From contig JBEKVV010000001.1 of assembly GCA_049513715.1 (NCBI GenBank), forward strand, positions 64,001-128,000: DNA of 64,000 bases, given 5' to 3'. The position numbers and the translations under genes are program-made. How positions within the stretch are numbered: the first letter of the stretch is position 1; each line of letters opens with the position of its first letter. The DNA comes from Candidatus Bathyarchaeia archaeon. Lineage in GTDB: Archaea > Thermoproteota > Bathyarchaeia > 40CM-2-53-6. Under the pieces are notes generated by a model. It made no database searches. It worked only from the letters and a program-made list of their open reading frames with translations, and had not been told where the DNA came from. Of this stretch, positions 30,647 through 60,746 are shown piece by piece.

Positions 30647-30665
30647 TTCGGTAACGATATTTAGT
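30647..30665 (+). promoter_or_regulatory. Putative BRE/TATA promoter of the original tRNA-Leu locus
   Basis: TTCGGTAACGATATTTAGT, identical to 60504-60522 and at nearly the same distance from the tRNA 5' end. Confidence 0.7.
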
Positions 30666-30756
30666 GAGTGCGGGGTAGATTGATTGATGCGAGGTGTGAG
30701 ACGCGACGGACTTGCCGAAGTGGCGGCCGTAGGGTCTCACCCCCGTGCAAAAATAT

Positions 30757-30774
30757 GCGGGGGTTGCCAAACCT
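30757..30774 (+). repeat. attL: 18-bp direct repeat (tRNA-Leu nt 1-14 + first 4 nt of intron 1)
   Basis: GCGGGGGTTGCCAAACCT identical to 60615-60632; lies 60 bp upstream of the integrase. Confidence 0.9.
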
Positions 30775-30833
30775 GAGCCCAAAAATGGACGGGGGTAAAC
30801 CATTTATCAGCCACTCGTCCTTCTGGTTGGTTC

Positions 30834-32330
30834 ATGGTTCATGAAGGGTGGATCAAGAAGCAGTGCGTCCAGTGGTGGCTGAACGAGAATCCCAGCGTTA
30901 AGAGGTGGCTGACCGAGGTGGTCACGAAGCCCAACACCCAGTACGATTACGGCTACAATCTGATGCGTTTCTGCGAGGGCGTGGGCGAGACGCCAGAGCA
31001 TCTGAGAGGCATTCGCCTAAGCAAGGACAGCGCTGTTCTTGCCGAATTCCGCAAAAAGCATGAGATACCAACGCAGGCCCGCGCCGACGAGGACGGGTCG
31101 TACGTAGTCCTAGACCTGCTGAAGAAGTTCGTCCGCAGCGGAAAGCTCGTTGACTTGTCTCCGCACAACCTCGGAGCGGAGATCAGTGTCGCCGCGTTGA
31201 GCAAGGCGAAACGGAGCGGCCTCCACAACGCTGTGAGGGCGTACTTCAAGTCCGAGATCGTCCGAGCGGCCCTTCCAGACGAGGCTTTCAAGATTGATGA
31301 GGGAAGCCGCGTCCGCCGGAGCAGGGACTTCAGCATGGAGGGCAGCGAGGGCATCGAGCAGGCGAAGAGGATTGTCCTCGCCACTAAGGAGCCCTACAGG
31401 ACGCTGTACTGGGCGGCATTGTACGGCTGCATGGGGAACGCCGAACTGTGCGCCCTGAACGAGGAGTGGCCGCAAATCCGCGAGCAACTGCAGAGCGGGA
31501 AAGACCCTGTTCGAGTTAGCTTCGAGTACCGCAAGGAGAACGAGCTTCCCTACTACACATTCGTTCCGGCACGAATCCTCCGGCCCTACATGCCGCACGG
31601 CGAGAACCCGTTCATCAACGCGAGCAGGAAGAAGGACGGCGTTGTGGTCGGGGGGAATCCGGTCAACGACGGGAACCTGATAAAGAAGTGGCGCGACGGG
31701 AGGACGCGGGCGAAGGTCGATCTGGCCGTTGGAGTCCACAACATCCGCGACCTGTGGCGGACGTACGCCGTCAAGGCGGGTCTCGAGTCCTCCACGGCAG
31801 AGTTCCTGATGGGCCACTCGCTCAATACGATTGACCCGAACCGCTACAACCAGATCTACCGTGACATCGCGTACACGAGGGGGCAGTGGGAGAAGATGAG
31901 GAAGCTCATCGACGGAGAAAGCCAAGAGTGGAGGAAGGATGTCGATGAGCTGAAGCAGAGGCTCGACAAGACCGAATACGAAAGAAAGGACGATCAGCGG
32001 CAGGCCAACAGGCAGTTCCTCATAGCCCTACAGTTCTCCCCGAAGGCGATCAAGAGGATAGCGGAGCAGCACAACGGTGATCTGGCGAACCTGACGAGGG
32101 ATGAGAAGCGGAAGTTTGCGGAGCAGGCCAAGATGAGGCTGGGGCAGTCAAGGCCAGCGGGGAAAGAGAGCAAGCCCCCCGCCCGGCTGAGAGTGACGAA
32201 GGAGGAGGCAGAGCTTCTTCAGGAGCAGGGATGGGAGAAGATAGAGGTCTTCGAGAGCGGGAGGGTTCTGCTCGAGTGGCGGTACTCTACCCCTCCTCCA
32301 AAGCGGCAGTTACTAGCTCCCAGTAAATGA
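30834..32330 (+). CDS. Tyrosine recombinase/integrase
   Basis: HNIR (HxxR), FLMGH, downstream Tyr (NRYNQIY); adjacent to attL. Confidence 0.88.
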   Translation: MVHEGWIKKQCVQWWLNENPSVKRWLTEVVTKPNTQYDYGYNLMRFCEGVGETPEHLRGIRLSKDSAVLAEFRKKHEIPTQARADEDGSYVVLDLLKKFVRSGKLVDLSPHNLGAEISVAALSKAKRSGLHNAVRAYFKSEIVRAALPDEAFKIDEGSRVRRSRDFSMEGSEGIEQAKRIVLATKEPYRTLYWAALYGCMGNAELCALNEEWPQIREQLQSGKDPVRVSFEYRKENELPYYTFVPARILRPYMPHGENPFINASRKKDGVVVGGNPVNDGNLIKKWRDGRTRAKVDLAVGVHNIRDLWRTYAVKAGLESSTAEFLMGHSLNTIDPNRYNQIYRDIAYTRGQWEKMRKLIDGESQEWRKDVDELKQRLDKTEYERKDDQRQANRQFLIALQFSPKAIKRIAEQHNGDLANLTRDEKRKFAEQAKMRLGQSRPAGKESKPPARLRVTKEEAELLQEQGWEKIEVFESGRVLLEWRYSTPPPKRQLLAPSK

Positions 32331-32478
32331 GAAGTTTTTCGATGGTCGCGGATGTCAGCGGCAGCTCGTCCGGCGTGTCCGCTATCTCTTTGAGGATTGC
32401 CGGGTGGTTCTGCAGTTTTTCTCTCACTAGGCGCTTGATCTCCACCATGCTCACCACGCCTTCCCCCCAGCCGGACAA
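32287..32478 (-). CDS. Small hypothetical protein
   Basis: ORF follows 32492-32752 on the same strand. Confidence 0.4.
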   Translation of the reverse strand: MSGWGEGVVSMVEIKRLVREKLQNHPAILKEIADTPDELPLTSATIEKLLIYWELVTAALEEG

Positions 32479-32491
32479 CTCCGCGTCCCCC

Positions 32492-32752
32492 TCAGTCGGA
32501 CGGCTTTCCTTTGAACGTCTTGAAGTCTGGCCGGTCGCGTGCGACTTCTTCGAAGGTCTTGATCTCCTCGAGCTTGGCGGTCAGCAAAGCCTTGACATGG
32601 GCGGGGCTCACGAGCGAGAGGTCTCCCAGCAAGGCGATTTCGTAGTCGGGATAATGCACCGCCCTCAAAAACGCCTCGGCAAACTCTCCTCGCGCTTGGG
32701 CTCGCTCGGAATCTCGCGCTTCAGACATGATATACCACCACCCTATGTCCAT
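32492..32752 (-). CDS. Small hypothetical protein
   Basis: ORF only. Confidence 0.45.
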   Translation of the reverse strand: MDIGWWYIMSEARDSERAQARGEFAEAFLRAVHYPDYEIALLGDLSLVSPAHVKALLTAKLEEIKTFEEVARDRPDFKTFKGKPSD

Positions 32753-32882
32753 TGAGCCCTTTTTCTCATTTTCTCTCTGCCTCCAGTGTTTTATGAAGTA
32801 GTTTACATATACTGCAGATTCAAATCATGATTTTTCTTGGGCTGGCCTTTTTAAACGCCATGAACAGGCTGAACGATGTCCC

Positions 32883-33104
32883 TTGACTGCTAGAGGAAAG
32901 TTAGAGCATGAAGTGATGTTCAAGCGGCACCTGCTGGCGTCGGGCCCCGTCAGCAAGGTGGTCGCGGTTCCGCCGAAATTTCTCCGAGAGCTGGGGCTTA
33001 AGGAGGGTGACCCAGTCTTGTGGAATTGGCCAATGCATTCGAAATCCATTCGACTGGTCGCTCCAAGGAAGGAGGATCCAAAGCGTGGCACCGCCAAGTC
33101 CTAA
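32883..33104 (+). CDS. AbrB/MazE/SpoVT-family DNA-binding protein
   Basis: VVAVPPKFLRELGLKEGDPV motif. Confidence 0.8.
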   Translation: MTARGKLEHEVMFKRHLLASGPVSKVVAVPPKFLRELGLKEGDPVLWNWPMHSKSIRLVAPRKEDPKRGTAKS

Positions 33105-34066: not shown

Positions 34067-36181
34067 CTAGTCGCTTTGACCCTCGGTAGCGGATGTATCA
34101 CTTGTATCAGATACGTACGAATCCATTGCGGGTGATACTGTACCTGATACATCCGATTTATCTGATTCAGGTCGAAAATCGTATTCTGCCTTCAAACGGT
34201 CTAGAAGTTTGCGGTTCACCTTCCAGTGGCGTTTCGTCGTTCTCTTACTGGTTTTCGGGTCTATGGTTGGAACCTGTACCTTCTCGAACCTTAGCCGCGA
34301 TAGAACCCTGCCTATTGCGATCGGAGATATGTTCTGGTCGGATAGTTCCTCTCTTACCTGTTCTGTTGAGACCGATTTGTCGCCTGCCGGCAATTTGGCA
34401 ACGGCATCAGAGTAAGCCGCCAAGACCTTATACTCTATTGTTTCCTCGATTCTCTCGCGGCGCGTCGCCTCTTCTTGCTCAAGAATACTTTCAAGGATCG
34501 GTCGGTATTTGTCGGGGGTTATTGCGATCAACGGTTCTAGAACGTCCGCAAGGCGCGGGTCATGCGTTACAACCTCGCTTGTCAAAGGTTGATGCCTTGA
34601 CAGGCAATCAATTCTATATTGAACGAGCTTGGCGCGTATCTCCTCAGCTTCCTCTTTCGTCAGCCGAGGATATCTCTTAGGAGATTTCGGCAAGATAATT
34701 TGGATACTGCGATCAGCAATGGTTTCGAAGATCTCTTTTCTGGACGCAATGACTTTGTAGCCAAAAGCATCCAAGAACATCGGCTCGTTATCTTCATTGC
34801 ATAGTAGTGCTGGAGACCCGCGTTGAACTCCGGCATTGAGACAAGCCATCAACTCCTTGTCTCCGCCGAACTTGTCCTCGGGGTTGATGTATGCTTCAGC
34901 TTCATCTAAGATGAGTGTGGCGTTGCTGTCATTAATAGCGCGTAGTATCGCGGCTCTTGTCGCAATACTCGCAAGTATTGGCCGGCGAGTCATCTGTCGG
35001 ATTATGTCGCAGAGCCAAGTCTTCGCGTGACCTTTGGGTGCCGTGACATAAAGGATAGTGGCGAAATTCGTGTCCTCGATTCGCCACGTCGCCATCACCC
35101 ATGCCGTCAGAATGTTGTAATGCTCGGGTTTCCATAACAAGACGTGACGTTTGAATGCGCTAAGGATGAACTCGTAGAGTTCAAGTTCTGTCCCATAGGG
35201 CTGTGGCGGGGGAACAGGTGCATAGATTGCCGCGACTTGGTCGGCAAAGACTTCGTCTTTCTTCTTTGTCTCTGATGGTTTTGCAAGGAGCCCAAGCTCA
35301 TAGGCTCGTTGAAACGTTTGGAATCCTTTGTCTTTGTTCTTGCCTTTGAGAGCGCCGGGGAGGGCTTCACTGCAGTCGATTATACCCTCTCGAACAGCCA
35401 ACCAAAGTAGCGGGCCTCCGCCCGTGTCGCATCTAAAACAGTACCAACAATTCTTGGCAGTATTGACGCTGAAATTATTTCCGGTAGTGCTATCGTGGAT
35501 CGGGTGCGAGCCCTGATATTGGTCGCCTCCCTTTGGTGTTAAGGCGTTTATGTCAACGACTGATTCTATTCGAAGTTCCCGATTTTTGGGGAACAGTTGT
35601 TTCTCGTGCGTTGCCTCTGTTTCAACTTGACTCTCTTTCTTGATGATCCATGGCTCCAATACTTGGAACAGTTCGACCGCAGATATGCTGGCGATCGGCG
35701 TGTCTCTCACGACTGTGTATCGTCCGCCATTCGGATGGATAGAATTGGGGCCGACGACGTAGCTTCGCTCGCCTTTGATGTGTCCTACGTTCGACTTACT
35801 TTTCTTGTCTCTGAGTTGTTTGATGCCTCCGTAGCCGAAACATAGGTAAGCGTAATGATGGCCCATGCTTCCAGGGCTTTGAACAGTTAGTGTTGGCGGA
35901 AGTTCTGCGTCGATTTTGGCAATAACTTCAGGTTCGTCGGCGTCAATCCAAATCAGGCCGGCTCCTCCTGCCACACCATAGTTACCGCCTTTCGCAAGGT
36001 GCGTCTGAAGTTCTGCGTCGTCCGCTTTCTTGAGTTTCTCCTGCCAGCCCTTTTCAATCGCACCCTTCGACCGTTCAGCTAACAGAACGAAACGTGGCCC
36101 CAGATTCTCAAGTCTTTTGATTAGGATGTCCGGAACGCTAACGAGGTCATTTTTGGTGCTGTTCAAATGGGCGTCCAGCAA
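34067..36181 (-). CDS. Primase-polymerase + zinc-binding domain + P-loop helicase-like replication protein
   Basis: GNYGV..WIDAD, GHH, YVVGPNSIHPNGGRY (Prim-Pol); HPIH..CFRC; APKGHAKT and ILDEAE. Confidence 0.85.
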   Translation of the reverse strand: MLDAHLNSTKNDLVSVPDILIKRLENLGPRFVLLAERSKGAIEKGWQEKLKKADDAELQTHLAKGGNYGVAGGAGLIWIDADEPEVIAKIDAELPPTLTVQSPGSMGHHYAYLCFGYGGIKQLRDKKSKSNVGHIKGERSYVVGPNSIHPNGGRYTVVRDTPIASISAVELFQVLEPWIIKKESQVETEATHEKQLFPKNRELRIESVVDINALTPKGGDQYQGSHPIHDSTTGNNFSVNTAKNCWYCFRCDTGGGPLLWLAVREGIIDCSEALPGALKGKNKDKGFQTFQRAYELGLLAKPSETKKKDEVFADQVAAIYAPVPPPQPYGTELELYEFILSAFKRHVLLWKPEHYNILTAWVMATWRIEDTNFATILYVTAPKGHAKTWLCDIIRQMTRRPILASIATRAAILRAINDSNATLILDEAEAYINPEDKFGGDKELMACLNAGVQRGSPALLCNEDNEPMFLDAFGYKVIASRKEIFETIADRSIQIILPKSPKRYPRLTKEEAEEIRAKLVQYRIDCLSRHQPLTSEVVTHDPRLADVLEPLIAITPDKYRPILESILEQEEATRRERIEETIEYKVLAAYSDAVAKLPAGDKSVSTEQVREELSDQNISPIAIGRVLSRLRFEKVQVPTIDPKTSKRTTKRHWKVNRKLLDRLKAEYDFRPESDKSDVSGTVSPAMDSYVSDTSDTSATEGQSD

Positions 36182-41074: not shown

Positions 41075-42613
41075 ATAACACAACGCGAACTAGCGCCCAA
41101 GAAGATCACTAGAAATGAACTGAATTCTCTTGTCGATCGAGCTGCTGATCTAATCAGAACGGCTGTAGACTACAAGTTCATTCTCGTTCTGCTCTTCCTG
41201 AAGAGAGTCAATGACTTCTGGAAGACTGAAAGGCGCCAGTACGAGGAACGGCTGTCAAAAGAGGCAAAGATGTCTGGAAAGGAGGCCCAAGAACAAGCGG
41301 AAAAACTCGATTACACATTCAAGATTCCAAAACAGTACCTCTGGGACGAGATAACAAAGGACGTCAAAACTCTACCGGAAAAACTGGGGACAGCGATAAG
41401 CGAGATTGCAAAGGTAAACACCGAACTCCAAGGCGTTATCAACAGAGTCGACTTCTTGGAGTTCGCAAGAAATCAAGAAAACAGAGAACTCTTGAGACAG
41501 CTAGTAGAACTTTTCAACAAATATGACCTGGGGGGCGATGAAGTCTCACCAGACGTTCTTGGCGATGCGTACGAACATATTCTCATGAAATTCGCACCCG
41601 AGCGAGCAAAGGAGGGAGAGATCTACACACCTAGAGAAGTCATCAAACTCATGGTTGAGGCCCTAGATCCGAAACCAGGGGAGAAAGTGTACGATCCTTG
41701 TTGTGGCTCTGGAGGTATGCTCATAATCTCGTATTTGCATGTCCTAGAAAAATACGGAGAGAAGGAAGTCAAGAAGCTTTTCCTCTACGGCCAAGAGAAA
41801 AATCCCGAGATCTACGCAATAGGCGAAATGAACCTGCTGCTGCATGACATCAAAAACGCAAATTTGGAAAATGGTGACACACTTGACTTTCCGAGGTTCG
41901 AAGAAGATGGAAGACTGCAACAGTTCACCGTAGTCATCGCAAACATACCATGGAACCAGGACGGCTACAACGAGGGCCGTCTCAAAGCAGTGAAATTCAA
42001 GGATAGGTTCAGTCTTGGATACCCGCCTCAAAGTTCAGCCGACTGGGCATGGATTCAGCACATGATTGCTTCTACTATGGATGGTGGAAGAGCAGCAGTG
42101 GTGGTCGACAACGGAGCCCTATTCAGAGGTGGCCAAGAAAGAGTTGTAAGAAGCAAGATAGTGGCGAAGGAGAGAGACTGGATTGAGTGTGTCATTCTGC
42201 TTCCCGAAAAGCTCTTCTACAATACCGGAGCCCCGGGGGCAATTGTAGTTTTCAAAAGGAACAAAAAGGACGAAAGGAAAAACAAAATTCTCTTTATCAA
42301 CGCTTCGAACGAGTTCATACAGCATCCATCGATTAGAAGATTGAACACGCTATCTTCGGACAACATGAACAAGATAGTCGAAGCATACAACAACTTCTCC
42401 GAAGTTTCTGGTTTCTCTAGGGTCGTTGACGTCAAAGAGGTTGTCAAGAACGATTACACTCTGAATGTTTCTCTCTACGTGATGCCTGTTGCAGAGGGAG
42501 AACCGGTCAACATCTCTCAAGTGTATTCAGAGTTGAAGGAACTGGAGCAAAGAAGAAACGAACTCAGCAGGCAACTAGATGAGGTATTGACGAAAGTACT
42601 AGAGTTAGAGTAG
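41075..42613 (+). CDS. hsdM: Type I R-M methyltransferase subunit (probable ATA start)
   Basis: AADLIR..DYK..LLFLKR N-domain upstream of the first ATG; GEIYTP, DPCCGSGG, ANIPW. Confidence 0.93.
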   Translation: MTQRELAPKKITRNELNSLVDRAADLIRTAVDYKFILVLLFLKRVNDFWKTERRQYEERLSKEAKMSGKEAQEQAEKLDYTFKIPKQYLWDEITKDVKTLPEKLGTAISEIAKVNTELQGVINRVDFLEFARNQENRELLRQLVELFNKYDLGGDEVSPDVLGDAYEHILMKFAPERAKEGEIYTPREVIKLMVEALDPKPGEKVYDPCCGSGGMLIISYLHVLEKYGEKEVKKLFLYGQEKNPEIYAIGEMNLLLHDIKNANLENGDTLDFPRFEEDGRLQQFTVVIANIPWNQDGYNEGRLKAVKFKDRFSLGYPPQSSADWAWIQHMIASTMDGGRAAVVVDNGALFRGGQERVVRSKIVAKERDWIECVILLPEKLFYNTGAPGAIVVFKRNKKDERKNKILFINASNEFIQHPSIRRLNTLSSDNMNKIVEAYNNFSEVSGFSRVVDVKEVVKNDYTLNVSLYVMPVAEGEPVNISQVYSELKELEQRRNELSRQLDEVLTKVLELE

Positions 42614-42614
42614 C

Positions 42615-43175
42615 ATGGTTCAAGTTTTCTTTCTTGACACCAACGTAATATTGGATTACTTGGAGGGCAGAAACGAAGAAGTAAGAGCGATAGTAGAACG
42701 CCTCATCAACCTGCACAAGAATGGCAGAGTTGTCTTAGCGACCTCGATATTGAATATTGCTGAGTCCATTTACAACGAGCTTGATCTACACTTCGGCAAG
42801 TGGGGTCTTGGCCAGAAGTTCGCTTTCGATGAGATTCGGAAGAAAAGAAAAAACTGGGATTTATTTGCCGATGTTGCAAAGGATAACAACGTGATGGAGA
42901 AAATCCAAGCTTTTGCTTACAAAAACGGAGTAGCCCTATACTCGGTTCCGCCCGAAGTCGAAGAATGTGACCGACTCTACGAGCTGATTTTCAGGCATCA
43001 GTTAGAGTCACAAGACGCTCTTATTGTTGCAGCTGCACTAACGAACAACGCGACCTATTTCCTGTCCGATGATTCTACCTTGATTAAGAAAACCAGTGAC
43101 ATATTGTACGGTTACGACCTTCAAAATGAACAGTCACGTAACGCCTTCCTGAGGGATGTTCTGGAGGCGATTTGA
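42615..43175 (+). CDS. PIN-domain (VapC-like) nuclease inside the hsd operon
   Basis: FLDTNV, AE, QDALIVAAA, LSDD acidic residues. Confidence 0.85.
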   Translation: MVQVFFLDTNVILDYLEGRNEEVRAIVERLINLHKNGRVVLATSILNIAESIYNELDLHFGKWGLGQKFAFDEIRKKRKNWDLFADVAKDNNVMEKIQAFAYKNGVALYSVPPEVEECDRLYELIFRHQLESQDALIVAAALTNNATYFLSDDSTLIKKTSDILYGYDLQNEQSRNAFLRDVLEAI

Positions 43176-44446
43176 AAGTGAAGTCGCTAGCCTTCTACAG
43201 AGAAGAAAATCTCGCGCAAACAGCTATCGGAAGGATACCGAGGGATTGGACTGTTGTTACCATAGGAGAAATCGCTGAAACCATGAGTGGAGGGACTCCA
43301 AGCAGGATAAAGAAGGAATACTATGGCGGAAATATCCCTTGGGTCAAATCTGGAGAACTGAAGGACAATAATATCTACAATACGAGTGAGACCATCACGG
43401 AAGAGGGATTACGAAATTCTTCAGCGAAATTGCTTCGCAAGGGCACATTGCTGGTTGCGTTGTATGGCGCGACCGTCGGAAAGACCGGTATTCTAGGAAT
43501 AGACGCCACGACAAACCAAGCCATCTGTGCAATCACGCCAAAAGAGAATAAGCTTGAGCCCTACTATCTCAAGTATCAAATAATCGCAAGAAGAAACGAG
43601 CTTGTTTCTGCAAGTTCTGGTGGAGCTCAACCAAACATAAGCCAAGGCATCATAAGAGCTGTCAGAATTCCACTGCCAGCATTGGAAGAGCAACATGAGA
43701 TCGCTGAGGTTCTCTCAAACGTCGATCAGACGATTCGCACGACCGATCAAATCATCGCAAAGACGGAACTTCTCAAGAAAACTCTGATGCAGCAGCTTCT
43801 CACGAGGGGAATAGGGCATAAGGAGTTCAGGGATTCTGAGATCGGAAGGATTCCGAAATCTTGGAATGTCTCTAGACTGGGCGATGTCGCAAAAGTAGAG
43901 CGTGGTAAGTTTTCGCACAGGCCTAGAAATGCACCCGAGTTCTATGGTGGGAAGATACCATTCATTCAAACAGGTGATATCGCAAAAACTAAGGGAATTA
44001 TCCGAAACTACTCCCAGACGTTGAACGAAAAAGGGCTGAAGATTAGCAGGCTATTCAAGAAAGGCACGATTGTCGTTTCAATAGCAGGTAATATCGGCGA
44101 CATCGGAATGCTCGGCTTTGATGCGTGTTTTCCTGACAGTGTCGTGGGTATTTCGGCTCATGATGAAATGCATAGCATGTTCCTCATGTACTTGCTCCAG
44201 ATCTATCAACAGGAGCTAAGTGGCAGAGCCCCCCGGAGTACACAGAAAAACATCAATCTACAAATCCTGAAGTCTATCAGAATTCCAGTTCCATCTGCTG
44301 ATGAACAGCGTCAGATTGCTAGCGTTCTTTCAAGCATTGACGGAAAGCTCGAAGTTGAGAGGAACGAGGGAGCAAGTCTGGAAAAGGCCAAGCAAGGACT
44401 AATGAATTTACTTCTTACAGGGAAAATCAGAATCAAGGTAGATTGA
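43172..44446 (+). CDS. hsdS: Type I R-M specificity subunit
   Basis: Two TRDs; IGRIPxxW repeats, GGAQPNI, PxPxxxEQ, KQGLMNLLLTGK. Confidence 0.95.
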   Translation: MKVKSLAFYREENLAQTAIGRIPRDWTVVTIGEIAETMSGGTPSRIKKEYYGGNIPWVKSGELKDNNIYNTSETITEEGLRNSSAKLLRKGTLLVALYGATVGKTGILGIDATTNQAICAITPKENKLEPYYLKYQIIARRNELVSASSGGAQPNISQGIIRAVRIPLPALEEQHEIAEVLSNVDQTIRTTDQIIAKTELLKKTLMQQLLTRGIGHKEFRDSEIGRIPKSWNVSRLGDVAKVERGKFSHRPRNAPEFYGGKIPFIQTGDIAKTKGIIRNYSQTLNEKGLKISRLFKKGTIVVSIAGNIGDIGMLGFDACFPDSVVGISAHDEMHSMFLMYLLQIYQQELSGRAPRSTQKNINLQILKSIRIPVPSADEQRQIASVLSSIDGKLEVERNEGASLEKAKQGLMNLLLTGKIRIKVD

Positions 44447-47400: not shown

Positions 47401-47458
47401 TGACAAGATAGACGAACTCACCGAGCAACTGTTCGGAGCAATGGAGGGAATGCAATGA
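44447..47458 (+). CDS. hsdR: Type I R-M restriction subunit
   Basis: ADIILLVNGIPLVCIECK, WHWQGSGKT, DEVHR, FTGTP, MLITGFDAP, QAIARTNR. Confidence 0.96.
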   Translation: MSYSEKGTVEDFIIQELQKLGWKFLNQKEMEAKRKGRLDEPLVLEDLRISIRKLNPDIDFTDADLDFVAVSLRTMPSNLEGIRRFLDIFRNGIVVPIQKENKEKVVGLFDLASTDNNEFVVTNQFKLEGSKANIRADIILLVNGIPLVCIECKSPTQENVDWTTGYTKIKRYERDAPELFKYVQYSIATDGMKTKYFPNGFNDESTDFISEWKDPHPFKASEFKDDILKATVYGLLSRSNLLDLIENFTFIRKETDKSTKIMTRYMQFRATEKICKRVIQTLKGKENSKFGLIWHWQGSGKTYTMAFTAWKLYFSSATERPSIFVLVDRKDLEEQIEKDFGFIEVPLERIHSIRELVEVLRHGKEGKRGVFLVTIEKFSPKEFKELAKESGEIEIKRENVIVLADEVHRTQYGKFSTLMRHIFKKAFIFGFTGTPLSKLERNTFSKFCPRGELYLDRYSMLDALKDGFTVELSYQPKLPEYHLNEKQYKQFVKFEEEEIKTLSKVEQKELRKKIRVITAFVKKPERVSAITADIAQHFKDVVEPTDLKAMVVTIDRDACVQYKTALDKALPPDFSEIVMTFTPDDKQDIRSYFDKLCEKYGTKDMKDIHDKIIDSFKTGKQPKILIVTDMLITGFDAPVLWTMYLDKPLKEHRVLQAIARTNRPFLNKKFGLIEDYIGVLAELQKAFQKFEASDAKDLRVVIRQLDKEKEEFKGLLQKALRIFESVKKEDTRESLESAMDVLVNPETAKQFEAVMRSLMKSYEMLRGEAFLAPYLSDYTWLTKMLVAYNKRFKKKDVDELKIQELSRKTYQLIQQTIDVKEIEDTYPTLSINAEYVEALKKSKPKTMGAAIDVIADIRHEASIHPSSPFFLNLSREIETAYEDLRTKKVDIEEAVHKAIDFSEKIAAWKTEENEIGKDKYPLYEAVKTVLPDVEKQKAVSFVNRLTEHLQELGLLFEGWQLQRDVRRKVKSETRFLLLSDYKEHHDKIDELTEQLFGAMEGMQ

Positions 47459-47832
47459 AGAGGACAATCGAAACCACCGATGACCCTCAGATTGAGGCGC
47501 TATATTCGAGACTTTCCAACGTTTATGATCAGATACGAAAAGAGAGAAGAGTCGAAGTTTTCGGCACGCTTGATTTCGAGGTCGTCAAAAGCATAGATGG
47601 CAAGAAACAGAGAATTGCAAAACTCAAAGGAAACAAGATATTAGTTCACATAAAGGCAAGGAGATTGCCGAAGAATGCTCTCAGATATATCATCGCCCAT
47701 GAAATCGCACACACGCTCACAAAGCGACACACAAAGAGATTTTGGAAAGTCGTCGGAGCAATTTACCCGACGTATGAAACGGGACAGAGCCTTCTCATGA
47801 AATATGGCAGTGAAGTTAGCTTTCCAGATTAG
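47455..47832 (+). CDS. YgjP/M48-like zinc metallopeptidase associated with type I R-M
   Basis: YIIAHEIAH..HTKRFW. Confidence 0.85.
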   Translation: MKRTIETTDDPQIEALYSRLSNVYDQIRKERRVEVFGTLDFEVVKSIDGKKQRIAKLKGNKILVHIKARRLPKNALRYIIAHEIAHTLTKRHTKRFWKVVGAIYPTYETGQSLLMKYGSEVSFPD

Positions 47833-48315
47833 TATCGCTAAATCATTGATTTGCTTGAGTTACTCTCGACTTGTGCCGACGACTTGCCGCACTTAGCTGA
47901 TCCACTCTCACCAGGGAATACATTCACGGGTAACATGAAAGCGCTTGGATCTCCTCAGACGATTTTCGAAATATGGCCCATACTCCACATACCTCCTAAC
48001 GGAAATCGGGAATCCAAGAAACTCCTAACGTTCGAATCCGCTCCATCTCTGTCGATCCGTGCGTAGAAAGACTGAAGAGTTACCCCTTTGTCATCGTGGC
48101 TTGCCAATTCAGGTCGTGCAGAATCCTTGACAGCTGCTGGGAATCCTAGTCTCGGTGCAACATCTACCTTCATCTACCTTCTAACTTCCAGCCCGTCAGC
48201 ACGGATTCGACACTAAAATTCCTGAATTGTGTACAGGGACTTGATGAGACTCGTTCCATCAACCAGTCGCTTTGCCCATAAGCAGATTACAAATAGTGAA
48301 GAGATCTATTATCAG

Positions 48316-49149
48316 ATGAAGAGAGCAAGACCGATAATGGCTCAGCAAGCACAACTTATCAACCGGTTGAATGACCTCAGTGGCAAAGAATGGATGCTAT
48401 TTACGAAGTCATGGTTCATTCTGAATCCATCTCCGAGAGGTCTTAAGGCATTACACCCGGCCTGCTACCCAGAAGAACTGGCATCGGCCTTCATCCAGTT
48501 TTTCACTAAAAGGGATGACTGGATCCTTGACCCTTTCCTCGGATCGGGCACCACTCTTGTCGCGGCTAAGCGGGCGGGACGAAATTCGGTGGGGATAGAG
48601 GTTTACAAGAAATATGCTCAACTCACGAAAGATCGGCTATCACAGATCGATGGTAACGGCACAAAGAGTCAAGTCTATGCGGGAGATTCAAGAAACATAA
48701 CATCAATCTTCAAAGCGAACAAACTGCCGTTCATAGACTTCTGTCTCACTTCGCCACCCTATTGGAATCAACTGCGACAGAATCACAGAAGACAAAGATC
48801 GAGAACAGAAATGGGCTTGTCGACTAGCTATGGAAAGTCAAAGCTCGACCTAGCCAACATTGATGACTATGATGAGTTCCTTCGAGCTGTCGTAGGTATC
48901 TTTGACGGTGTCCACAATGTAATGGCGAAAAACTCCTATCTCGTATTAGTTTGCAACAACGTATATCGTAATGGAAGAGTCTTCCCGCTGGCGTATGATC
49001 TGTTTCGTATGCTATCAAAAAAATGGATACCGAAAGACGAGCGCATTTGGTGTCAGGACAATAAGTCACTTTATCCATTTGGAATCTATTGCGCATGGGT
49101 AGCAAACCGTTGTCATCATTACTGTTTTGTTTTCAAGAGGGCTGACTGA
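48316..49149 (+). CDS. Orphan amino-DNA methyltransferase (probably m4C)
   Basis: HPACYP, LDPFLGSGTT (motif I) precedes TSPPYW (motif IV); start could be 48229 or 48337. Confidence 0.9.
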   Translation: MKRARPIMAQQAQLINRLNDLSGKEWMLFTKSWFILNPSPRGLKALHPACYPEELASAFIQFFTKRDDWILDPFLGSGTTLVAAKRAGRNSVGIEVYKKYAQLTKDRLSQIDGNGTKSQVYAGDSRNITSIFKANKLPFIDFCLTSPPYWNQLRQNHRRQRSRTEMGLSTSYGKSKLDLANIDDYDEFLRAVVGIFDGVHNVMAKNSYLVLVCNNVYRNGRVFPLAYDLFRMLSKKWIPKDERIWCQDNKSLYPFGIYCAWVANRCHHYCFVFKRAD

Positions 49150-49868
49150 TCTCCCATCTTGATGCCAATCTGCCCGTCTCTTTTTCCGCCCTTATGAGGC
49201 GGAAGGTTCATCACCAGAGTCATGACGACGTCATGCTCTATTTCATCAAGTCTCTTTGATAAGAGGCTTCCAATGGTCGAGTACGGCATCTCGATCGCAA
49301 TGGCACTAATTGTGCCATCGACTACTGATAGTTTGCTAAGTCTGACAGGTCGGGCAAGATCGAGTCTGAAGTTCCTCATTTCCTCGCTATTTTCATTTGA
49401 AACCCAGAGAATCTCTCCGACTAATTTGCGTGTCACTTTGTTGGCATAGAGGCTTCGCTCGATGGGTGTCTGAATAGTCAAAGTGACCTCGTTTATGGAC
49501 TCCTGTTTGAAGAAACCCTTGTCTTTTAGCTTGATAGTCTTGACTTTTCTCTTACGTGAGGTAATCACTTCAAAGTGATCATCGGCTAAGTCAGTTTCAA
49601 TTCCTCCTGGAGGTGTGTATTGTATTAGGATGTCAGCATTCAACGGTGGTTCGTAGAGTTTCAAACGCTGATATGGAAAAAGCCGTGTTCCCCAGTTTAA
49701 GGCACATTTTAGCACCTGTATTCTACGAAGAGTAAAATCGTCTATGTAGACGTCCTGATCCGAGTTGGTAGACTTTGGTTTTTCATATGCAGCGTATCCC
49801 AACCAGCCGACAATGGCCGTACCAATAATGCCGACAATACCGATCATAATGGATGTGACATCTGTCAA
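49119..49868 (-). CDS. N-terminally membrane-anchored beta-rich protein
   Basis: Single TM (IMIGIVGIIGTAIVGWLGY) then soluble domain; third gene of a minus-strand operon. Confidence 0.7.
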   Translation of the reverse strand: MTDVTSIMIGIVGIIGTAIVGWLGYAAYEKPKSTNSDQDVYIDDFTLRRIQVLKCALNWGTRLFPYQRLKLYEPPLNADILIQYTPPGGIETDLADDHFEVITSRKRKVKTIKLKDKGFFKQESINEVTLTIQTPIERSLYANKVTRKLVGEILWVSNENSEEMRNFRLDLARPVRLSKLSVVDGTISAIAIEMPYSTIGSLLSKRLDEIEHDVVMTLVMNLPPHKGGKRDGQIGIKMGDQSALLKTKQ

Positions 49869-49891
49869 TCTATGTCTACTCGAAGCATGGT

Positions 49892-51154
49892 TCAGCGAAA
49901 ACCTTCACGAGTGATTACGTGCTTCACATAATCAGCGTCGATAGTCGCACGTGTGTCTGATGCCAGGTTTTCTATACACAGTCTGCAGAGTGTCACCACT
50001 TTAGAAACCGTTCCCTTGGTTGTCGAGAAGATCTCGTCCAACGCGGCTATTGTGAATGGGAAGATCGAGGCTTCGATGGTCGAACGTGTATCGGTAGTCT
50101 CAGACTTCTTTGCAGAGCCAGATATCCTCGATGTCAACAAATAGCGCTGAACTAGTTCAAGAACTTCTTTCTTGCTGAACGGCGCTAAATCGATTACTGA
50201 ACCAGCGAGCCGCCTTTCAAGCGCACTCGGTACCTCAGTGAGTTCCTCCCATTCAGCAGGTGTTATTGCAAACATGATTGCGAGGCCGCCCGGGTTACCG
50301 TCTATGAGATGACGGAGAGCATCCTGGTAGAGCCCTCTTGACATTCGGGTTATCAGGGTGATTGCTTCTAACTCATCGATTAGAACAACCAATCCCGAGA
50401 GTCCAATCACGTGAAGTAGCTTGAGAAATGCGTTTAGGGCCCGCTCTGCAATAGATTGGTCATCGATAGTCGAATCTATTCCAAGTGTCTTATGTTCGTC
50501 TCGCGAGAGAGATGAACCGACAAACCAACGCCATGCTATGGAACCAAGCTCAGGGTGTGGCAGAATCAGAAAGGCTCTAACCAAGTCTGGATTCTTGGCT
50601 GCCGCAAGACGAGGCAGCATATCATTTACCAACTCCAGTGATCTCGCGATGCTTAGATATTTCGGAACATCCGAGTAACTATTCAAGACGTACGACTGTT
50701 TTTGAGCAAGGTACTTCTGAGTTTCTGCTTTCGAGAGATTCTGAAATATCCAGCGAACCGCAAGATCTGTCAGCAATTCTCGTCCGAGATCGTCAACTAT
50801 GTATAGGAAAAGATCCCGCATGCTTCTCCCAGGAGACTTGGCGTAGATGGCTAGTGCAGGGTTGTCTCCTGTCGAGAGTTTTCTATTTACGCTTAGTTTG
50901 AAAAGCTTAAGCAGATGGCTCTTTCCTGACCCATAATCGCCTAACAGAACAGTCACAGAGCTGGAATTATCAGTGCGCAATACTGTAAGAACATCAAGAA
51001 AACGTCTAATGGCAGCCTGTCTATCTGCAGTTGTAAGCGGTAAATCGGAGGGAACTGCTGTAGAGGGAAATGGGTTCCTGGTCAAGAGCAGTTTTGAATA
51101 GTTCTTCTTCTGAAGATTACTGAGATCTATGAAACCTTGCTCATCCAGACTCAA
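49892..51154 (-). CDS. P-loop ATPase, BrxD/DUF2791-like
   Basis: NPF, GDYGSGKSHLL, AWRWFVG, VLIDELE, ALERRL. Confidence 0.75.
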   Translation of the reverse strand: MSLDEQGFIDLSNLQKKNYSKLLLTRNPFPSTAVPSDLPLTTADRQAAIRRFLDVLTVLRTDNSSSVTVLLGDYGSGKSHLLKLFKLSVNRKLSTGDNPALAIYAKSPGRSMRDLFLYIVDDLGRELLTDLAVRWIFQNLSKAETQKYLAQKQSYVLNSYSDVPKYLSIARSLELVNDMLPRLAAAKNPDLVRAFLILPHPELGSIAWRWFVGSSLSRDEHKTLGIDSTIDDQSIAERALNAFLKLLHVIGLSGLVVLIDELEAITLITRMSRGLYQDALRHLIDGNPGGLAIMFAITPAEWEELTEVPSALERRLAGSVIDLAPFSKKEVLELVQRYLLTSRISGSAKKSETTDTRSTIEASIFPFTIAALDEIFSTTKGTVSKVVTLCRLCIENLASDTRATIDADYVKHVITREGFR

Positions 51155-51990
51155 CTGCTCAACCTCAAGGAAAGATATGCATACCGTCGCTTGTGGTAAC
51201 GGAAGCCTCTGAAGTCACTTTCGCTCTGTGGCGGAGCACCGTGAAGATAGATAGCATTGCCAACTTTACTGTTCACTGTTTTCTCGAGATAGGCGTCAAA
51301 AAGTTCCGGAGAATCCAAACCGAGATCCAAGGACACAGCATCCCTCAGTGTATCTATTGAAGCGTATATCAAAGGCGCGGTTCGGGTTGATTTGTCTTGG
51401 ATATCAGAATAGGCACGAGTCAAAGCAGAGTAGAATTCGGGAATGCTCACAAATGTCTTTGTAGGCCCTGATTTTACAACTCCGCCATAGCTAACCGCTA
51501 ACCCTGCCTCAACACAAAACGCGATAAGTGTCTTCGCGGGAACCTCCTTGAACTCCTTTTGTATATCTTGCAGTTCTCTTGACACATCAGTATACTCAAG
51601 AAACCTCTTGAAAAGAGGCCCCTTATCGTCATTGCTCAGAATCAATCCCTTCAAATATCGTCTGTAAGTTTTCTTCTTTGAAATATCATCCTTCACCCCA
51701 CAGATTTTCTCACAAAGTGGAGTTATCCTATACTTGTGAGTGGGTCGGTCAACTTCTTTGATGAGTTTGAATATATTGGCGGTGTAAAAGTAAGTGTCTC
51801 TGGTTTTTACATGTATGTGGCCCTTCTTGGTTAATGAGGCTAATACTTGTCGGTACTCCTCTGCGTCGAACCTTCGCTCCGCCATCGCACATAGCGATGC
51901 GAAGAACTTCTGTACATCGTCAACGAGCATCAAGCCCTCCCTAGAACGTCCATATTTCGTATGTCTCAAATTCAGTAACTCCCGCGTCAC
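51151..51990 (-). CDS. Basic protein with probable winged-helix domains
   Basis: FKLIKEV..YRITPL and EAGLAV wing-like segments; 4-nt overlap with the ATPase start. Confidence 0.6.
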   Translation of the reverse strand: MTRELLNLRHTKYGRSREGLMLVDDVQKFFASLCAMAERRFDAEEYRQVLASLTKKGHIHVKTRDTYFYTANIFKLIKEVDRPTHKYRITPLCEKICGVKDDISKKKTYRRYLKGLILSNDDKGPLFKRFLEYTDVSRELQDIQKEFKEVPAKTLIAFCVEAGLAVSYGGVVKSGPTKTFVSIPEFYSALTRAYSDIQDKSTRTAPLIYASIDTLRDAVSLDLGLDSPELFDAYLEKTVNSKVGNAIYLHGAPPQSESDFRGFRYHKRRYAYLSLRLSS

Positions 51991-54918: not shown

Positions 54919-54957
54919 CGATGACTACTAACAACTCGCAACACATATGTCCAAACG

Positions 54958-57567: not shown

Positions 57568-57706
57568 TCACAGTCCAGTCGTACCGCTACAGCCACAGCA
57601 ACGTTTATTTCTGCCGCTTCTGATATAACAGCACGTCTGCTGCTGTGACAGCAGCACACTTATCCATCCAAAACGAGGGAGAAAGAAAGAGGAGGCGAGC
57701 CAGAAG

Positions 57707-58555: not shown

Positions 58556-58766
58556 TTGCGGGAGGTGACTTGACCTGTTCAGAAATAGGGTTGGTCTGGC
58601 CGGCGTCGGCGCCGTAATCGCGGGGGTATGGCTTCTCTGCTTCGCGGTTGCTTCGGCAATCGTGTCCGCGTACCAGTCGGCCTACTGGCCTGCCTTCTAC
58701 GCGATGGCTGTCGGAGCTTCCCTCGTTTCTTCCGGCACGGTGTTGGCCAGAACGTTCAGGTAGGGG

Positions 58767-59012
58767 CTACTTGTTCGGCCCCCCCAGACTTGGCCCGATG
58801 GCTCTGGGGTTTTGGAGCCACCGCATGGCTGCCTTCTTGGTTTTGAACTCCTCGACAAAACAGTCAGATGTGGTGTTGTCCACGCCAACCAACCATCGGC
58901 CCTCCTTGGTTAAGTACAGCGCTCGATAGCGCTCCAGCTCCCACCACTCGCTGTGCCCAAGTAGGCGGTGAATGAACCGCTCCGAGACCCGTCTGACTAT
59001 TCGTTTCTTCAA
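58767..59012 (-). CDS. Small hypothetical protein
   Basis: SD GGAGGTGA upstream; same-strand run with DUF932. Confidence 0.55.
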   Translation of the reverse strand: MKKRIVRRVSERFIHRLLGHSEWWELERYRALYLTKEGRWLVGVDNTTSDCFVEEFKTKKAAMRWLQNPRAIGPSLGGPNK

Positions 59013-59048
59013 AGTTTTTTCACCTCCTTCCCGCAGGAATCGGAGCGC

Positions 59049-59435
59049 TTAGTCGAACTCGGCAAAGAGCGCGCCCTTCCGAATTGCTTCCGGAATGTCG
59101 CTTTCCGATTCGAGCTGCTGGTCGGTCAGGTTCTTCTGGTCGGTGGAGTCGATCAGGTTGAGCACGCACCAGCGGCCGCTCTTGTGCCAGACGTGCTTGC
59201 TCGATCTGATTCCTCCGGCGAAGAGGAGAAAGACGCTGACTCCTTCGGATTGTGAGGCGAGCGTCTGGAGTTCTTGGATTGTTTCGATTCTTGGCTTGGC
59301 GGCCTTCAGTTGTCGAGCGAAGGTGTCGAGCAGCTTGGCTTCTTGAGGATAGTCTTCCGGATTCGTATCGAAGTCGCAAAACCAGTCACAGGCGAACCGA
59401 TAGGCTTCGGGGTCGAGTTCGATCTGCATTTTCAT
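59049..59435 (-). CDS. Hypothetical protein
   Basis: ATGA overlap with the DUF932 gene; SD GAGGTGA. Confidence 0.65.
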   Translation of the reverse strand: MKMQIELDPEAYRFACDWFCDFDTNPEDYPQEAKLLDTFARQLKAAKPRIETIQELQTLASQSEGVSVFLLFAGGIRSSKHVWHKSGRWCVLNLIDSTDQKNLTDQQLESESDIPEAIRKGALFAEFD

Positions 59436-60274
59436 AGACGCTCACCTCCTCTTCGGGCGGTCATTGTGGGCGCGACCAACACTCTTCGGGCCGCGTCCTC
59501 GTACCTTTCTCGGGCCAATGGCTGAGTCCGAAGTTCGTGCGTAGCGTATCCGGTCAGAGCATTCGCCAAGTCATATCGGGTGATCTCTGTAGTCCGCTCC
59601 AGCCTCGCAACGATTTTCTCGGAGACCCGAGGGCCGATGTCGAGGCGCTTCAGGACTGCGCTGGCGTCCTCTTCGATTCTCTCCGTCGCGGCTCTCTGAA
59701 CCATCTTCTCAAATTCTGGTCTTTGCTGCCTGATTCTGCGTATGGCGAATCGCACCCAGTTTCGTACGTTGCTGCTTCCTGTGTGGATTTTTCGGGCGGC
59801 CAGTTCGCGTGTCCAGGCGTGGAGTCCGTTCTGGCAGATTTTGCGCCAGGCATAGTACGCGGCGGTGACCGCGCTGGATCCGTCCAGGCTGTTTCCGAAG
59901 ACGACCCCGTCGCGGTAGGTGTCTCCCGGAAGCGGCAGGAATTCCTCTGGGGATAGGGCGGTAACCCAGATTCGCCCCTCCATGCTCCAGCAGTCGACTC
60001 TTCCGCGTGAGCCGTCGAGTCCGAGTTCGGCGAACTGTGTGACGACTGCTTTCACAAGGTCTCTGTGCTGGACTACTCGGTAGTTTTTCCCGGCGACCTG
60101 CCATATGTGGTCGGCAGTACAGATGGCTCTGTAGTCGCCGCTGTTGCTCCACCTTCGTGCTCCCGCGAGCCTCGATAGCGGAACTGCTTCGGCGACGGGC
60201 AGACGGTCGGCCACCGCGAGAAGCTGATCCAGGCTCTCGAACTCGTAGCTGGAAAACTTCGCTGCACTATTCAA
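59432..60274 (-). CDS. DUF932 (TIGR03299-like) phage/plasmid protein
   Basis: YRVVQH, NSLDGS, RKICQNG, IHTG. Confidence 0.8.
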   Translation of the reverse strand: MNSAAKFSSYEFESLDQLLAVADRLPVAEAVPLSRLAGARRWSNSGDYRAICTADHIWQVAGKNYRVVQHRDLVKAVVTQFAELGLDGSRGRVDCWSMEGRIWVTALSPEEFLPLPGDTYRDGVVFGNSLDGSSAVTAAYYAWRKICQNGLHAWTRELAARKIHTGSSNVRNWVRFAIRRIRQQRPEFEKMVQRAATERIEEDASAVLKRLDIGPRVSEKIVARLERTTEITRYDLANALTGYATHELRTQPLARERYEDAARRVLVAPTMTARRGGERL

Positions 60275-60503
60275 TTCGGCTCCACCTCCACACTCGTTTC
60301 TTCGCAGTCGTTCGTTCGGTCGGATGGGACGCGGCTTGTACTAGCAGCCTCCCAAATTCTCGATTCATTCATTTCCCAAACACCTCCTTGGTGCGGGCGG
60401 TCAGCGTTCACAAAATTTCGTTTGTCCGGCAGAGCTTCCGCTGACCAGAGGAAGCCTGCACGGTTTTAGGAATTAGCGTGAAACGATCGTCTATCTCGGC
60501 TAC

Positions 60504-60522
60504 TTCGGTAACGATATTTAGT
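60504..60522 (+). promoter_or_regulatory. Element-borne copy of the tRNA promoter
   Basis: Identical 19-mer to 30647-30665. Confidence 0.7.
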
Positions 60523-60614
60523 CGCGTGGAACGGATAGTGTGCTTGGCGAGGAGTAGCGTCCGGCGGCGTCGTGGGCGACCCGTTCGGGGATGCTAACCT
60601 TCGTCCAATATTGG

Positions 60615-60632
60615 GCGGGGGTTGCCAAACCT
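60615..60632 (+). repeat. attR: 18-bp direct repeat
   Basis: Identical to 30757-30774. Confidence 0.9.
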
Positions 60633-60746
60633 TCAGTTCGATTTGAAGGGGCGAGGCCAGGTCAAAGGCGCAGAGCACGTAAGCGCGGAAGGCTTAGGAC
60701 CCTGTCCCGTAGGGGTTCCGGGGTTCGAATCCCCGCCCCCGCACCA
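60615..60746 (+). tRNA. tRNA-Leu(TAG) with two non-canonical introns (60629-60655 at 14/15; 60674-60690 at 29/30), CCA encoded
   Basis: Splicing gives an 88-nt cloverleaf: GCGGGGG/CCCCCGC acceptor, CAGGG-CTTAGGA-CCCTG anticodon arm, long variable arm, CGGGG-TTCGAAT-CCCCG T arm. Confidence 0.92.

What the first reader, a model, noticed from the sequence alone, without database searches (positions are those of the whole stretch)
30647..60746. Element integrates at the 5' end of a tRNA and supplies a replacement promoter
Seen: the att core is tRNA nt 1-14 plus 4 intron nt, so integration separates the tRNA body from its native promoter by ~30 kb. An identical 19-bp TATA-containing box ends 92 bp (left) and 93 bp (right) before each att copy. 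Established: most tRNA-targeting elements duplicate the 3' part and leave the promoter in place. Inference: this element rescues the tRNA with its own promoter copy, which could also give it control over tRNA-Leu expression.
Basis: partly seen in the sequence, partly recalled or inferred. Interest (0 to 1): 0.8.

Follow-up and report, generated by a model that had tools for sequence, protein, structure and literature searches.

The report
Portable promoter module for front-targeted tRNA
A 30-kb island sits at the very start of this archaeon's only detected leucine (UAG) tRNA gene and ends in a 107-base module, shared by dozens of related insertions, that likely serves as a replacement promoter with a predicted hairpin leader; the matching left copy is likely left over from an older insertion rather than being the host's own promoter.

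Summary
In detail: an 18-bp att core (tRNA-Leu(TAG) nt 1-14 plus 4 intron nt) lies at 30757 and 60615, an identical 19-mer precedes each, and an intact divergent tyrosine integrase follows the left copy.

The interpretation needs one correction. A third, decayed att at 28524 lies 65 bp after uppP, where 10 of 17 relatives carry the tRNA. So the left 19-mer is not the host promoter. It ends an older 2.2-kb insert.

Both 19-mers head a conserved ~107-nt module: promoter-like box, ~65-nt hairpin, A-rich linker, att. I recovered 75 copies (73 distinct); 42 sit directly on the tRNA, behind varied cargo. A host tRNA-promoter matrix picks the box in 68 of 73. Near relatives show the left module joined straight to the tRNA, the empty site.

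Against or open: no RNA data, no excision seen, weak hairpin covariation, and the module search required the box.

5′-tRNA integration with promoter replacement is published for pTN3-like split integrases. A dedicated, portable promoter-hairpin-att module with an intact integrase was not found in my searches. Verdict: new variant of a known kind.

The parts
27685..28458 (+). uppP/bacA, the host gene that marks the native tRNA-Leu(TAG) locus
   Evidence: Pfam BacA E=1e-66; tRNA follows uppP by 52-98 bp in 10 of 17 same-genus loci and by 616 bp in 2 more
28488..28503 (+). Likely stranded native tRNA promoter (TATA-like TATATCAG at 28493-28500)
   Evidence: Lies at -37 from the old att, the usual position; matrix score only 3.4 bits; inference from synteny
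28524..28539 (+). Degenerate oldest att copy (one extra C) at the original tRNA start
   Evidence: exact equivalents behind a native-type upstream region in L195/L102 and L093
28540..30756 (.). Older 2.2-kb insert with no integrase; carries a DUF998 membrane-protein ORF (28744-30375, minus strand)
   Evidence: bounded by att copies at 28524 and 30757
30526..30570 (+). Decayed tRNA-3'-end (T-arm-like) repeat upstream of module A
30647..30665 (+). Module A box (BRE/TATA-like 19-mer)
   Evidence: matrix score 5.2 bits
30688..30749 (+). Module A predicted hairpin leader
   Evidence: z=-2.9; z=-3.5 for the identical copy L097
30757..30774 (+). att core: left end of the 30-kb island and right end of the older insert
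30796..30811 (+). Predicted own promoter of the integrase gene
   Evidence: matrix score 6.1 bits at -38 from the ATG; GGGGGTAAA also precedes the homolog in G015
30834..32330 (+). Intact divergent tyrosine integrase, 498 aa, not split by att
   Evidence: PHROG integrase E=2e-4; family profile matches XerA 5hxy E=3e-11 and lambda Int; K234, R305, G327, H328, Y338 invariant in 71 of 71; no Arg at the box-I position
34067..36181 (-). Primase-polymerase with zinc ribbon (predicted replication protein)
   Evidence: Pfam Prim-Pol E=1.5e-12
41270..47832 (+). Type I restriction-modification operon with PIN and YgjP-like genes (cargo)
48229..51154 (.). N6/N4 DNA methylase (+) and BrxD-like ATPase (-) cargo
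59432..60274 (-). DUF932 backbone gene
   Evidence: Pfam E=3.5e-14; paralogous segment at G000 C1:500529-501570
60504..60522 (+). Module B box; likely the current tRNA promoter
   Evidence: matrix score 7.8 bits
60544..60608 (+). Module B predicted hairpin leader; its 3' arm holds AACCTTCG (60596-60603), complementary to tRNA nt 3-9
   Evidence: z=-2.4, z=-2.0 with flanks
60615..60746 (+). tRNA-Leu(TAG) with two introns (60629-60655, 60674-60690); nt 60615-60632 are the right att core
   Evidence: no second TAG isoacceptor found in G000

Best explanation
The 30-kb island is bounded by repeats of the first 18 bases of the tRNA-Leu(TAG) gene and ends in a conserved 107-base module that likely acts as a replacement promoter with a predicted hairpin leader, while the left copy likely marks an older insertion at the same site. 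Proposed steps: (1) A tyrosine integrase recombines at a core made of tRNA exon 1 plus the first intron bases. This core reads like a T-arm (GGGGTT-GCCA-AACCT); the exact crossover is inferred. (2) Because nearly the whole tRNA ends up downstream of the island, the donor site carries its own box about 107 nt upstream. Transcription would start at the base of the hairpin, and RNase P would remove the ~70-nt leader at the A-rich linker. (3) The leader's 3' arm (AACCYYC) resembles an integrase half-site and is complementary to the tRNA's 5' strand. The 5' arm likely ties it up so the acceptor stem can fold. (4) Each new insertion lands at the tRNA start, so inserts stack. The newest module drives the tRNA, and it would be kept after the rest of the island decays. 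In this window the order is: native promoter, old att (28524), 2.2-kb insert with module A, att, 30-kb island with module B, tRNA.
For: Synteny: the tRNA lies 52-98 bp after uppP in 10 of 17 same-genus loci; this window has a degenerate att 65 bp after uppP. Same stacking elsewhere: L102/G007 shows native upstream-att-1.9 kb-module-att-1.1 kb-module-tRNA; L093 shows native att-4.6 kb-module-tRNA; L066 and L127 show uppP-1.5 to 1.8 kb-module-tRNA with no old att detected. Box-independent search of 105 genomes: of 17 tRNA-Leu(TAG) genes with this intron, 14 have a native-type upstream region, 3 have the module and none has neither (classed by eye). A matrix from 23 native tRNA upstream regions of G000 has its best hit in the box in 68 of 73 modules; median 6.7 bits on the plus strand against 0.8 on the minus strand; 1.1% of background scores as high. 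Hairpin: median z -3.45 on the top strand (60 of 73 below -2) and -2.21 on the bottom; G-U outnumbers A-C 123 to 56 in the main subfamily. Folding: mean acceptor-stem pairing has median 0.60 with the full leader, 0.04 with only its last 30 nt and 0.19 with the 5' part scrambled, n=31. The genes upstream of modules differ from locus to locus.
Against: No transcript data. The module scan required GGTAA...TATT, so conservation of those bases and much of the matrix score are built in. The matrix is insensitive: 14 native Leu promoters in relatives score only -2.5 to 2.4, so a weak proximal promoter in the module is not excluded. The TATA-like part (TATTTAGT, TATTTGGT) is G-rich for a TBP site. Folding started at offset 36, so earlier hairpin starts could not be seen. 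Covariation is weak in the main subfamily (0.222 vs 0.209 shuffled, 41 of 500 shuffles as high). RNAalifold recovered only 4 pairs there, and on the full set it paired the leader with the tRNA instead. G-U vs A-C is near even by column on all 73 (11 vs 9). The full leader still left the acceptor stem below 0.5 in 14 of 31 cases, and native 30-nt leaders give about 0.59. This integrase family lies right behind an att in only two genomes (G000, G015). Other integrases lie near other copies, so which enzyme uses which site is not shown. No excised circle or restored site was seen.
Confidence: 0.65

Rival explanations
1. The box and the inverted repeat are DNA-level accessory (arm-type) sites for the integrase at a fixed distance from the core, not a promoter and an RNA leader. 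The tRNA is transcribed from a weak or more distant promoter.
For: Box-to-core spacing is nearly fixed at about ten helical turns. The hairpin arms contain copies of the core half-sites (G-run, AACCYYC, inner GGGTTGC). A second GGTAA-like word recurs 26 nt later in many copies. Covariation is weak. 33 of 75 modules are not on a tRNA.
Against: The box matches the host's own tRNA-promoter matrix on the tRNA strand only. The top strand folds better than the bottom in 68 of 73. The module persists in integrase-less remnants, including L066 and L127 where no left att was detected. No other promoter-like site scores in the usual window (insensitive test).
Confidence: 0.15
2. The short units (1-4.6 kb) are not decayed islands but non-autonomous gene cassettes moved in trans. 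The tRNA start works as an integron-like insertion site, and each cassette brings the promoter module so the tRNA stays on. This is compatible with the promoter role.
For: Many units are short, lack an integrase and hold one or two accessory genes, often PIN or toxin-antitoxin type. Module-A-like sequences (84-98% identical) end different cargo. A tRNA-tail-like repeat lies 37-112 nt upstream of the box in 22 of 66 modules, against 0 of 41 control windows.
Against: No conserved arm downstream of the core. The left att of short units is often degenerate or not detected. The same cassette was not seen at two positions. Tandem integration followed by deletion gives the same picture.
Confidence: 0.15
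3. One reading: the left 19-mer is the host's native tRNA promoter and the island carries a copy of it.
For: The two 19-mers are identical. Module A was likely the resident promoter just before the 30-kb island arrived (L168, L117).
Against: None of the 14 native-type tRNA-Leu(TAG) upstream regions carries the box. The native site is behind uppP at 28524. Outside the 19-mer, modules A and B are only loosely alike (63 alignment points over ~108 nt), i.e. two members of one mobile family.
Confidence: 0.03
4. The left copy is the 5' piece of a split tRNA that is trans-spliced.
For: Promoter-like box, leader, exon 1 and four intron bases in a row.
Against: The right copy is a complete gene with exon 1. 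The left copy is followed by an integrase. Sequence after non-tRNA copies is not conserved.
Confidence: 0.01

Closest known systems
pTN3-like suicidal integrases of Thermococcales (PMC8371274 and PMC5495485, passages read)
   Same: Archaeal tyrosine integrase targeting the 5' part of a tRNA-Leu gene. The restored tRNA is separated from its original promoter and, per the review, expressed from the integrase promoter.
   Different: There the 41-bp att lies inside the integrase gene, which is split on integration, and the promoter swap is a by-product. Here the core is 18-22 bp and includes intron bases, the integrase is intact with its own predicted promoter, and a separate conserved box-hairpin module precedes att.
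CalSub-E1 of Ca. Caldiarchaeum subterraneum (PMC6563490, passages read)
   Same: Archaeal element recombined with the 5'-distal part of a tRNA gene (tRNA-Ser); the paper' targeting considerably less frequent.
   Different: A single case; the word 'promoter' does not occur in that paper's main text. No comparison of sequences was made here.
dusA-associated integrases (PMC4482086, passages read)
   Same: Island integrates at the 5' end of a host gene and supplies a new 5' end with putative promoter elements.
   Different: Bacterial, protein-coding target, -10/-35 promoter; no structured leader in the passages read.
Classical T-loop-targeting tRNA integrases and tandem att arrays (Williams 2002, as cited in PMC8371274; the paper itself was not available)
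   Same: Short core with dyad symmetry; repeated use of one site gives stacked elements.
   Different: They duplicate the 3' end and leave the native promoter in place.

Membership tests
Tyrosine recombinases | C-terminal catalytic K, HxxR, H/W and Y | tested here: met
   K234, H302xxR305, H328, Y338; invariant or nearly so in 71 homologs; profile hits XerA, XerD, lambda Int
Tyrosine recombinases | Box-I catalytic arginine | tested here: not met
   G at the aligned position in 56 of 71 and never R; R233 conserved in 70 of 71 may substitute
Tyrosine recombinases | Catalytic-domain fold | tested here: inconclusive
   Model from 10 sequences has pLDDT below 50 over residues 151-317; the second job had not finished
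tRNA-integrated element | Direct repeats of a tRNA segment at both ends with an integrase beside one | tested here: met
tRNA-integrated element | Empty site in relatives | tested here: met
   L168 and L117 for the 30-kb island; uppP-tRNA adjacency for the whole stack
tRNA-integrated element | Excised circle or restored site in the population | tested here: inconclusive
   No such joint listed in 7 runs kept as contigs, which drop rare forms
pTN3/SSV-type suicidal integrases | att inside the integrase reading frame; gene split on integration | tested here: not met
   The ORF starts 60 bp after att, and the frame is closed by a TGA at 30774-30776
pTN3/SSV-type suicidal integrases | Target is the 5' part of tRNA-Leu | tested here: met
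   nt 1-14 plus intron bases, shorter than the 41 bp given in PMC5495485
pTN3/SSV-type suicidal integrases | Sequence homology of the integrase | tested here: inconclusive
   No tblastn match in the plasmid or phage collections at E 0.01; I did not check that pTN3 is held there
Archaeal BRE-TATA promoter | Match to the host promoter motif on the transcribed strand | tested here: met
   with the stated circularity and low sensitivity
Archaeal BRE-TATA promoter | Transcription start about 25 nt downstream; TBP/TFB binding | not testable with these tools
   No RNA holder listed
Known structured RNA families (Rfam) | Covariance-model match of the leader | tested here: not met
   No hit in the window at gathering score; in 13 module loci 4 hits at E up to 1, all tRNA or tmRNA models
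Integrons | IntI-type integrase with attC cassettes | not tested
   Only a weak profile hit to IntI4 among many recombinases; the IntI-specific insertion was not examined

The most novel reading that the evidence does not exclude
Soil and peat Bathyarchaeia run a cassette system anchored on the front of an essential tRNA gene. Its recombination site is a T-arm mimic that exists only because of an intron at position 14/15. Every mobile unit, with or without an integrase, ends in a portable promoter-riboregulator module whose hairpin hides an integrase half-site from the tRNA, and the host cannot lose the last module without losing the tRNA.
Probability: 0.2. Interest if true: 0.8.

Novelty: new variant of a known kind. 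Interest (0 to 1): 0.55.

Why it matters
5′-end tRNA targeting is rare, and in the best-studied archaeal case it is a by-product of a split integrase. Here a mobile family seems to solve the promoter problem with a dedicated, conserved module. That gives a testable case of a host depending on mobile DNA to express an essential tRNA: CTA is 1038 of 7751 Leu codons in long open frames of the first 400 kb of C1.

It also links tRNA introns to mobile elements in the opposite way to the recalled idea that introns protect tRNA genes from integration. The att pattern (5′ exon plus intron bases) was found in 17 of 23 genomes of this genus and in 2 of 82 other genomes of the order.

Practically, the module marks insertion hotspots whose multi-intron tRNA is missed by ARAGORN and Rfam.

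Tried and rejected
ARAGORN and Rfam found no tRNA in the raw window because of the two introns. A relaxed genome-wide ARAGORN run gave mostly noise.

Viral collection: no relative of the integrase, by single protein or alignment. The loose module pattern gave 5 hits there, and none passed the stricter filter. There is no evidence that the island is a provirus.

No RNA holder listed. No attP or attB joint was listed. The loose ends at the box and att fit the contig of the other copy; one is 108 nt long, matching that contig's end.

RNAalifold on MAFFT alignments did not recover the full hairpin. The first AlphaFold model was poor in the catalytic domain, and the second was not collected. TAL-effector hits are sums of weak repeat matches and were ignored.

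My early idea that the module is the integrase promoter in the circle was dropped as unnecessary, because the integrase has its own promoter-like site. The split-tRNA reading was rejected.

Williams 2002 and Zhao and Williams 2002 were not held. Six full-text searches listed no paper describing this module; most subscription journals are not covered. Two look-ups of earlier scan findings, by words and by sequence, returned nothing.
Full report
1. Observation. The 19-mer has two exact copies in the 2.79-Mb genome. The right repeat is the start of a tRNA-Leu(TAG) with introns at 60629-60655 and 60674-60690; with both removed ARAGORN calls it. The other Leu-like genes that I found in G000 read as GAG and CAG, so this appears to be the only TAG isoacceptor. 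The host is read as Bathyarchaeia from the titles of related records that carry the module (3 archaeal records of 5 hits, two titled Bathyarchaeia or Bathyarchaeota; the 2 bacterial hits were not examined further).

2. The island. A 498-aa ORF starts 60 bp after the left att. Pfam misses it. PHROGs gives a weak integrase hit, 13 of 23 scanned relatives show a Phage_integrase match at E below 0.01, and a 71-sequence profile matches XerA, XerD and lambda Int. K234, R305, G327, H328 and Y338 are invariant, and the box-I Arg is absent. Nine full-length close homologs at 58-78% identity and one partial exist; their DNA context could not be fetched. The island also encodes a primase-polymerase, a type I R-M operon, a second methylase, a BrxD-like ATPase and DUF932. 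Its contig depth equals the chromosomal flank (248 vs 247 in X13), and no excision joint was listed.

3. Where the native promoter is. In 17 same-genus loci fetched by the tRNA body alone, uppP ends 52-98 bp before the tRNA in 10 and 616 bp before it in 2; 5 have no uppP within 1.5 kb. In this window uppP ends at 28458, and a degenerate att copy follows 65 bp later at 28524 with a TATA-like word at the usual distance. So the original tRNA start is at 28524. The stretch 28540-30756 is an earlier insert, and the left 19-mer is at its right end. G007/L102 shows the same stack with three att copies. L093 shows two copies 4.6 kb apart. L066 and L127 show uppP, about 1.5-1.8 kb of other DNA, the module and the tRNA, with no old att detected. 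L168 and L117 show a module-A-like sequence joined directly to the tRNA, the state predicted before the 30-kb island arrived.

4. The module. Of 109 distinct matches, a stricter box and att filter kept 75 loci (L060 and L142 kept by hand). These hold 73 distinct modules in 53 clusters at 90% and 24 at 80% identity. Three are this genome's own copies. 42 sit on a tRNA and 33 on other DNA. Spacing is 105-109 nt in 63 of 73. Bases not fixed by the first pattern are conserved too: T at -3 in 70 of 73 and A at -7 before att in 71 of 73. The core shared with the tRNA runs to 19-22 nt in 23 of 33 non-tRNA copies. In a search that did not use the box (28 att matches in 105 genomes) I classed 14 as tRNA-Leu(TAG) with native-type upstream, 3 as tRNA with module, 2 as another Leu isoacceptor, 1 as an old att behind a native-type upstream region, 7 as module plus att off the tRNA and 1 as unrelated. 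Of those 7, 2 have an intact box, 3 a one-base variant, 1 has lost it and 1 is masked.

5. Promoter test. A 16-column matrix from 23 native tRNA upstream regions of G000 puts its best hit on the box in 68 of 73 modules (median 6.7 bits, minus strand 0.8, background 99th percentile 6.8). It finds background-level scores at the usual -45 to -18 position (median -0.5). Limits: the scan fixed nine box bases, and native Leu promoters of relatives score only -2.5 to 2.4. Taking the integrase gene's own promoter-like site (38 nt before its ATG) as a ruler, the start would fall near offsets 37-41 from GGTAA. The hairpin begins at 36-39 in 64 of 73, though folding was started at 36. This is inference; no RNA run was listed.

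6. Hairpin. Top-strand z has median -3.45 (60 of 73 below -2) and bottom-strand -2.21 (43 of 73). A hand-drawn 20-pair structure is 75% paired in the 46-member subfamily against 38-52% when slid, but its covariation barely exceeds shuffles (41 of 500). On all 73 it exceeds every shuffle, but subfamilies are mixed and partly misaligned. G-U exceeds A-C 123 to 56 in the subfamily and 230 to 153 overall. Among nearest-neighbour pairs, paired positions change less than unpaired ones (9.7% vs 15.4%), yet only 9 of 21 double changes keep the pair. So the fold is conserved thermodynamically, with modest sequence proof. Its 3′ arm, AACCYYC at -19 to -13, is complementary to tRNA nt 3-9 and matches the core's right arm. 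For module B the acceptor stem forms at 0.87 with the full leader and 0.0 without the 5′ arm. Across 31 modules the medians are 0.95 (no leader), 0.60 (full), 0.04 (last 30 nt) and 0.19 (5′ part scrambled); 17, 10 and 4 of 31 exceed 0.5 for the last three, and native 30-nt leaders give about 0.59. I read this as partial support for a protective role.

7. Origin (inference). The core resembles a tRNA T-arm. A tRNA-tail-like repeat with a similar layout (AACCCWCR, A/T spacer, GGGTT) lies within 120 nt upstream of the box in 22 of 66 modules (0 of 41 control windows; genome background 0.5%) and just downstream of att in 7 of 31 non-tRNA copies. A T-loop-targeting system may have been retargeted to the exon-intron mimic at the 5′ end, which then required a promoter. 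An earlier scan report reads such repeats in this genome as casposon docking sites (unchecked), so this link is open. Integrases of the window's family follow att directly only in G000 and G015. More distant ones lie 0.1-2.5 kb from att in L103, L100, L089, L116 and L092, and in G123 the module lies 20 kb from a different tRNA-Leu and an integrase.

8. Literature. [quoted passage not shown] PMC5495485 (passages and supplementary legends in the main text): 41-bp att, integrase disrupted, tRNA separated from its promoter. PMC6563490 (passages): 1 of 39 tRNA-targeting elements uses the 5′ region. PMC4482086 (passages): dusA islands supply a new 5′ end and promoter. PMC10848311 and PMC11529989 (passages): nothing on this site. 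Supplements were not opened and may list att sites. Williams 2002 and Zhao and Williams 2002 were not available; I know them only as cited or recalled.

9. Verdict. Real feature, correct general idea, wrong history. The principle is known. The portable box-hairpin-att module, the intron-dependent 18-22 bp core, the intact Arg-less integrase and the stacking were not found in print in six searches. Novelty: new variant of a known kind. Confidence in the replacement-promoter reading 0.65; interest 0.55.

Noticed in passing
G000 C1:468500-513884 (outside the window): A second copy of the island backbone (71-92% identical in pieces, including DUF932) and, 12 kb further on, a third module followed by only 11 nt of the att core at a non-tRNA site. 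No integrase of this family was found there.
   Followed up: partly
window 30834-32330: The integrase family lacks the box-I catalytic arginine; R233-K234 is almost invariant.
   Followed up: partly
G000 C1:892314, C3:160087, C3:181344, C4:150377, C5:206519; G018 C2:459575-472713: Dispersed tRNA-3'-end-like repeats with a palindromic upstream arm: 5 by a strict pattern in G000 (0 in the reversed control) and 7 within 13 kb in G018.
   Followed up: partly
L203, L216, L217, L212 (G018, G014, G123): Module plus att core followed within about 60-90 nt by the 3' end of another tRNA; in G014 and G018 the tRNA-Leu(TAG) itself keeps its native upstream region. This suggests elements carrying two att sites side by side.
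   Followed up: partly
L089, L092, L115, L138: A second, unrelated-looking integrase family lies on the opposite strand just after module-att copies.
   Followed up: partly
window 41270-51990: Defence cargo: type I R-M with a PIN gene between M and S and a YgjP-like gene after R; a second methylase converging on a three-gene unit with a BrxD/SngB-like ATPase.
   Followed up: no
window 8015-8192 and 1400-1609: Tandem repeats of 57 nt (about three copies) and 105 nt (two copies).
   Followed up: no
window 866-1299 and 4703-5136: A 434-nt inverted repeat at 80% identity, from two divergent paralogous ORFs of about 340 aa.
   Followed up: no
L199 (G019), L204 (G016): A second Leu isoacceptor gene starts with the same exon and intron bases, so it could be a second target.
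   Followed up: no
L116, upstream of the module: An RNA 3'-terminal phosphate cyclase gene lies next to a module.
   Followed up: no
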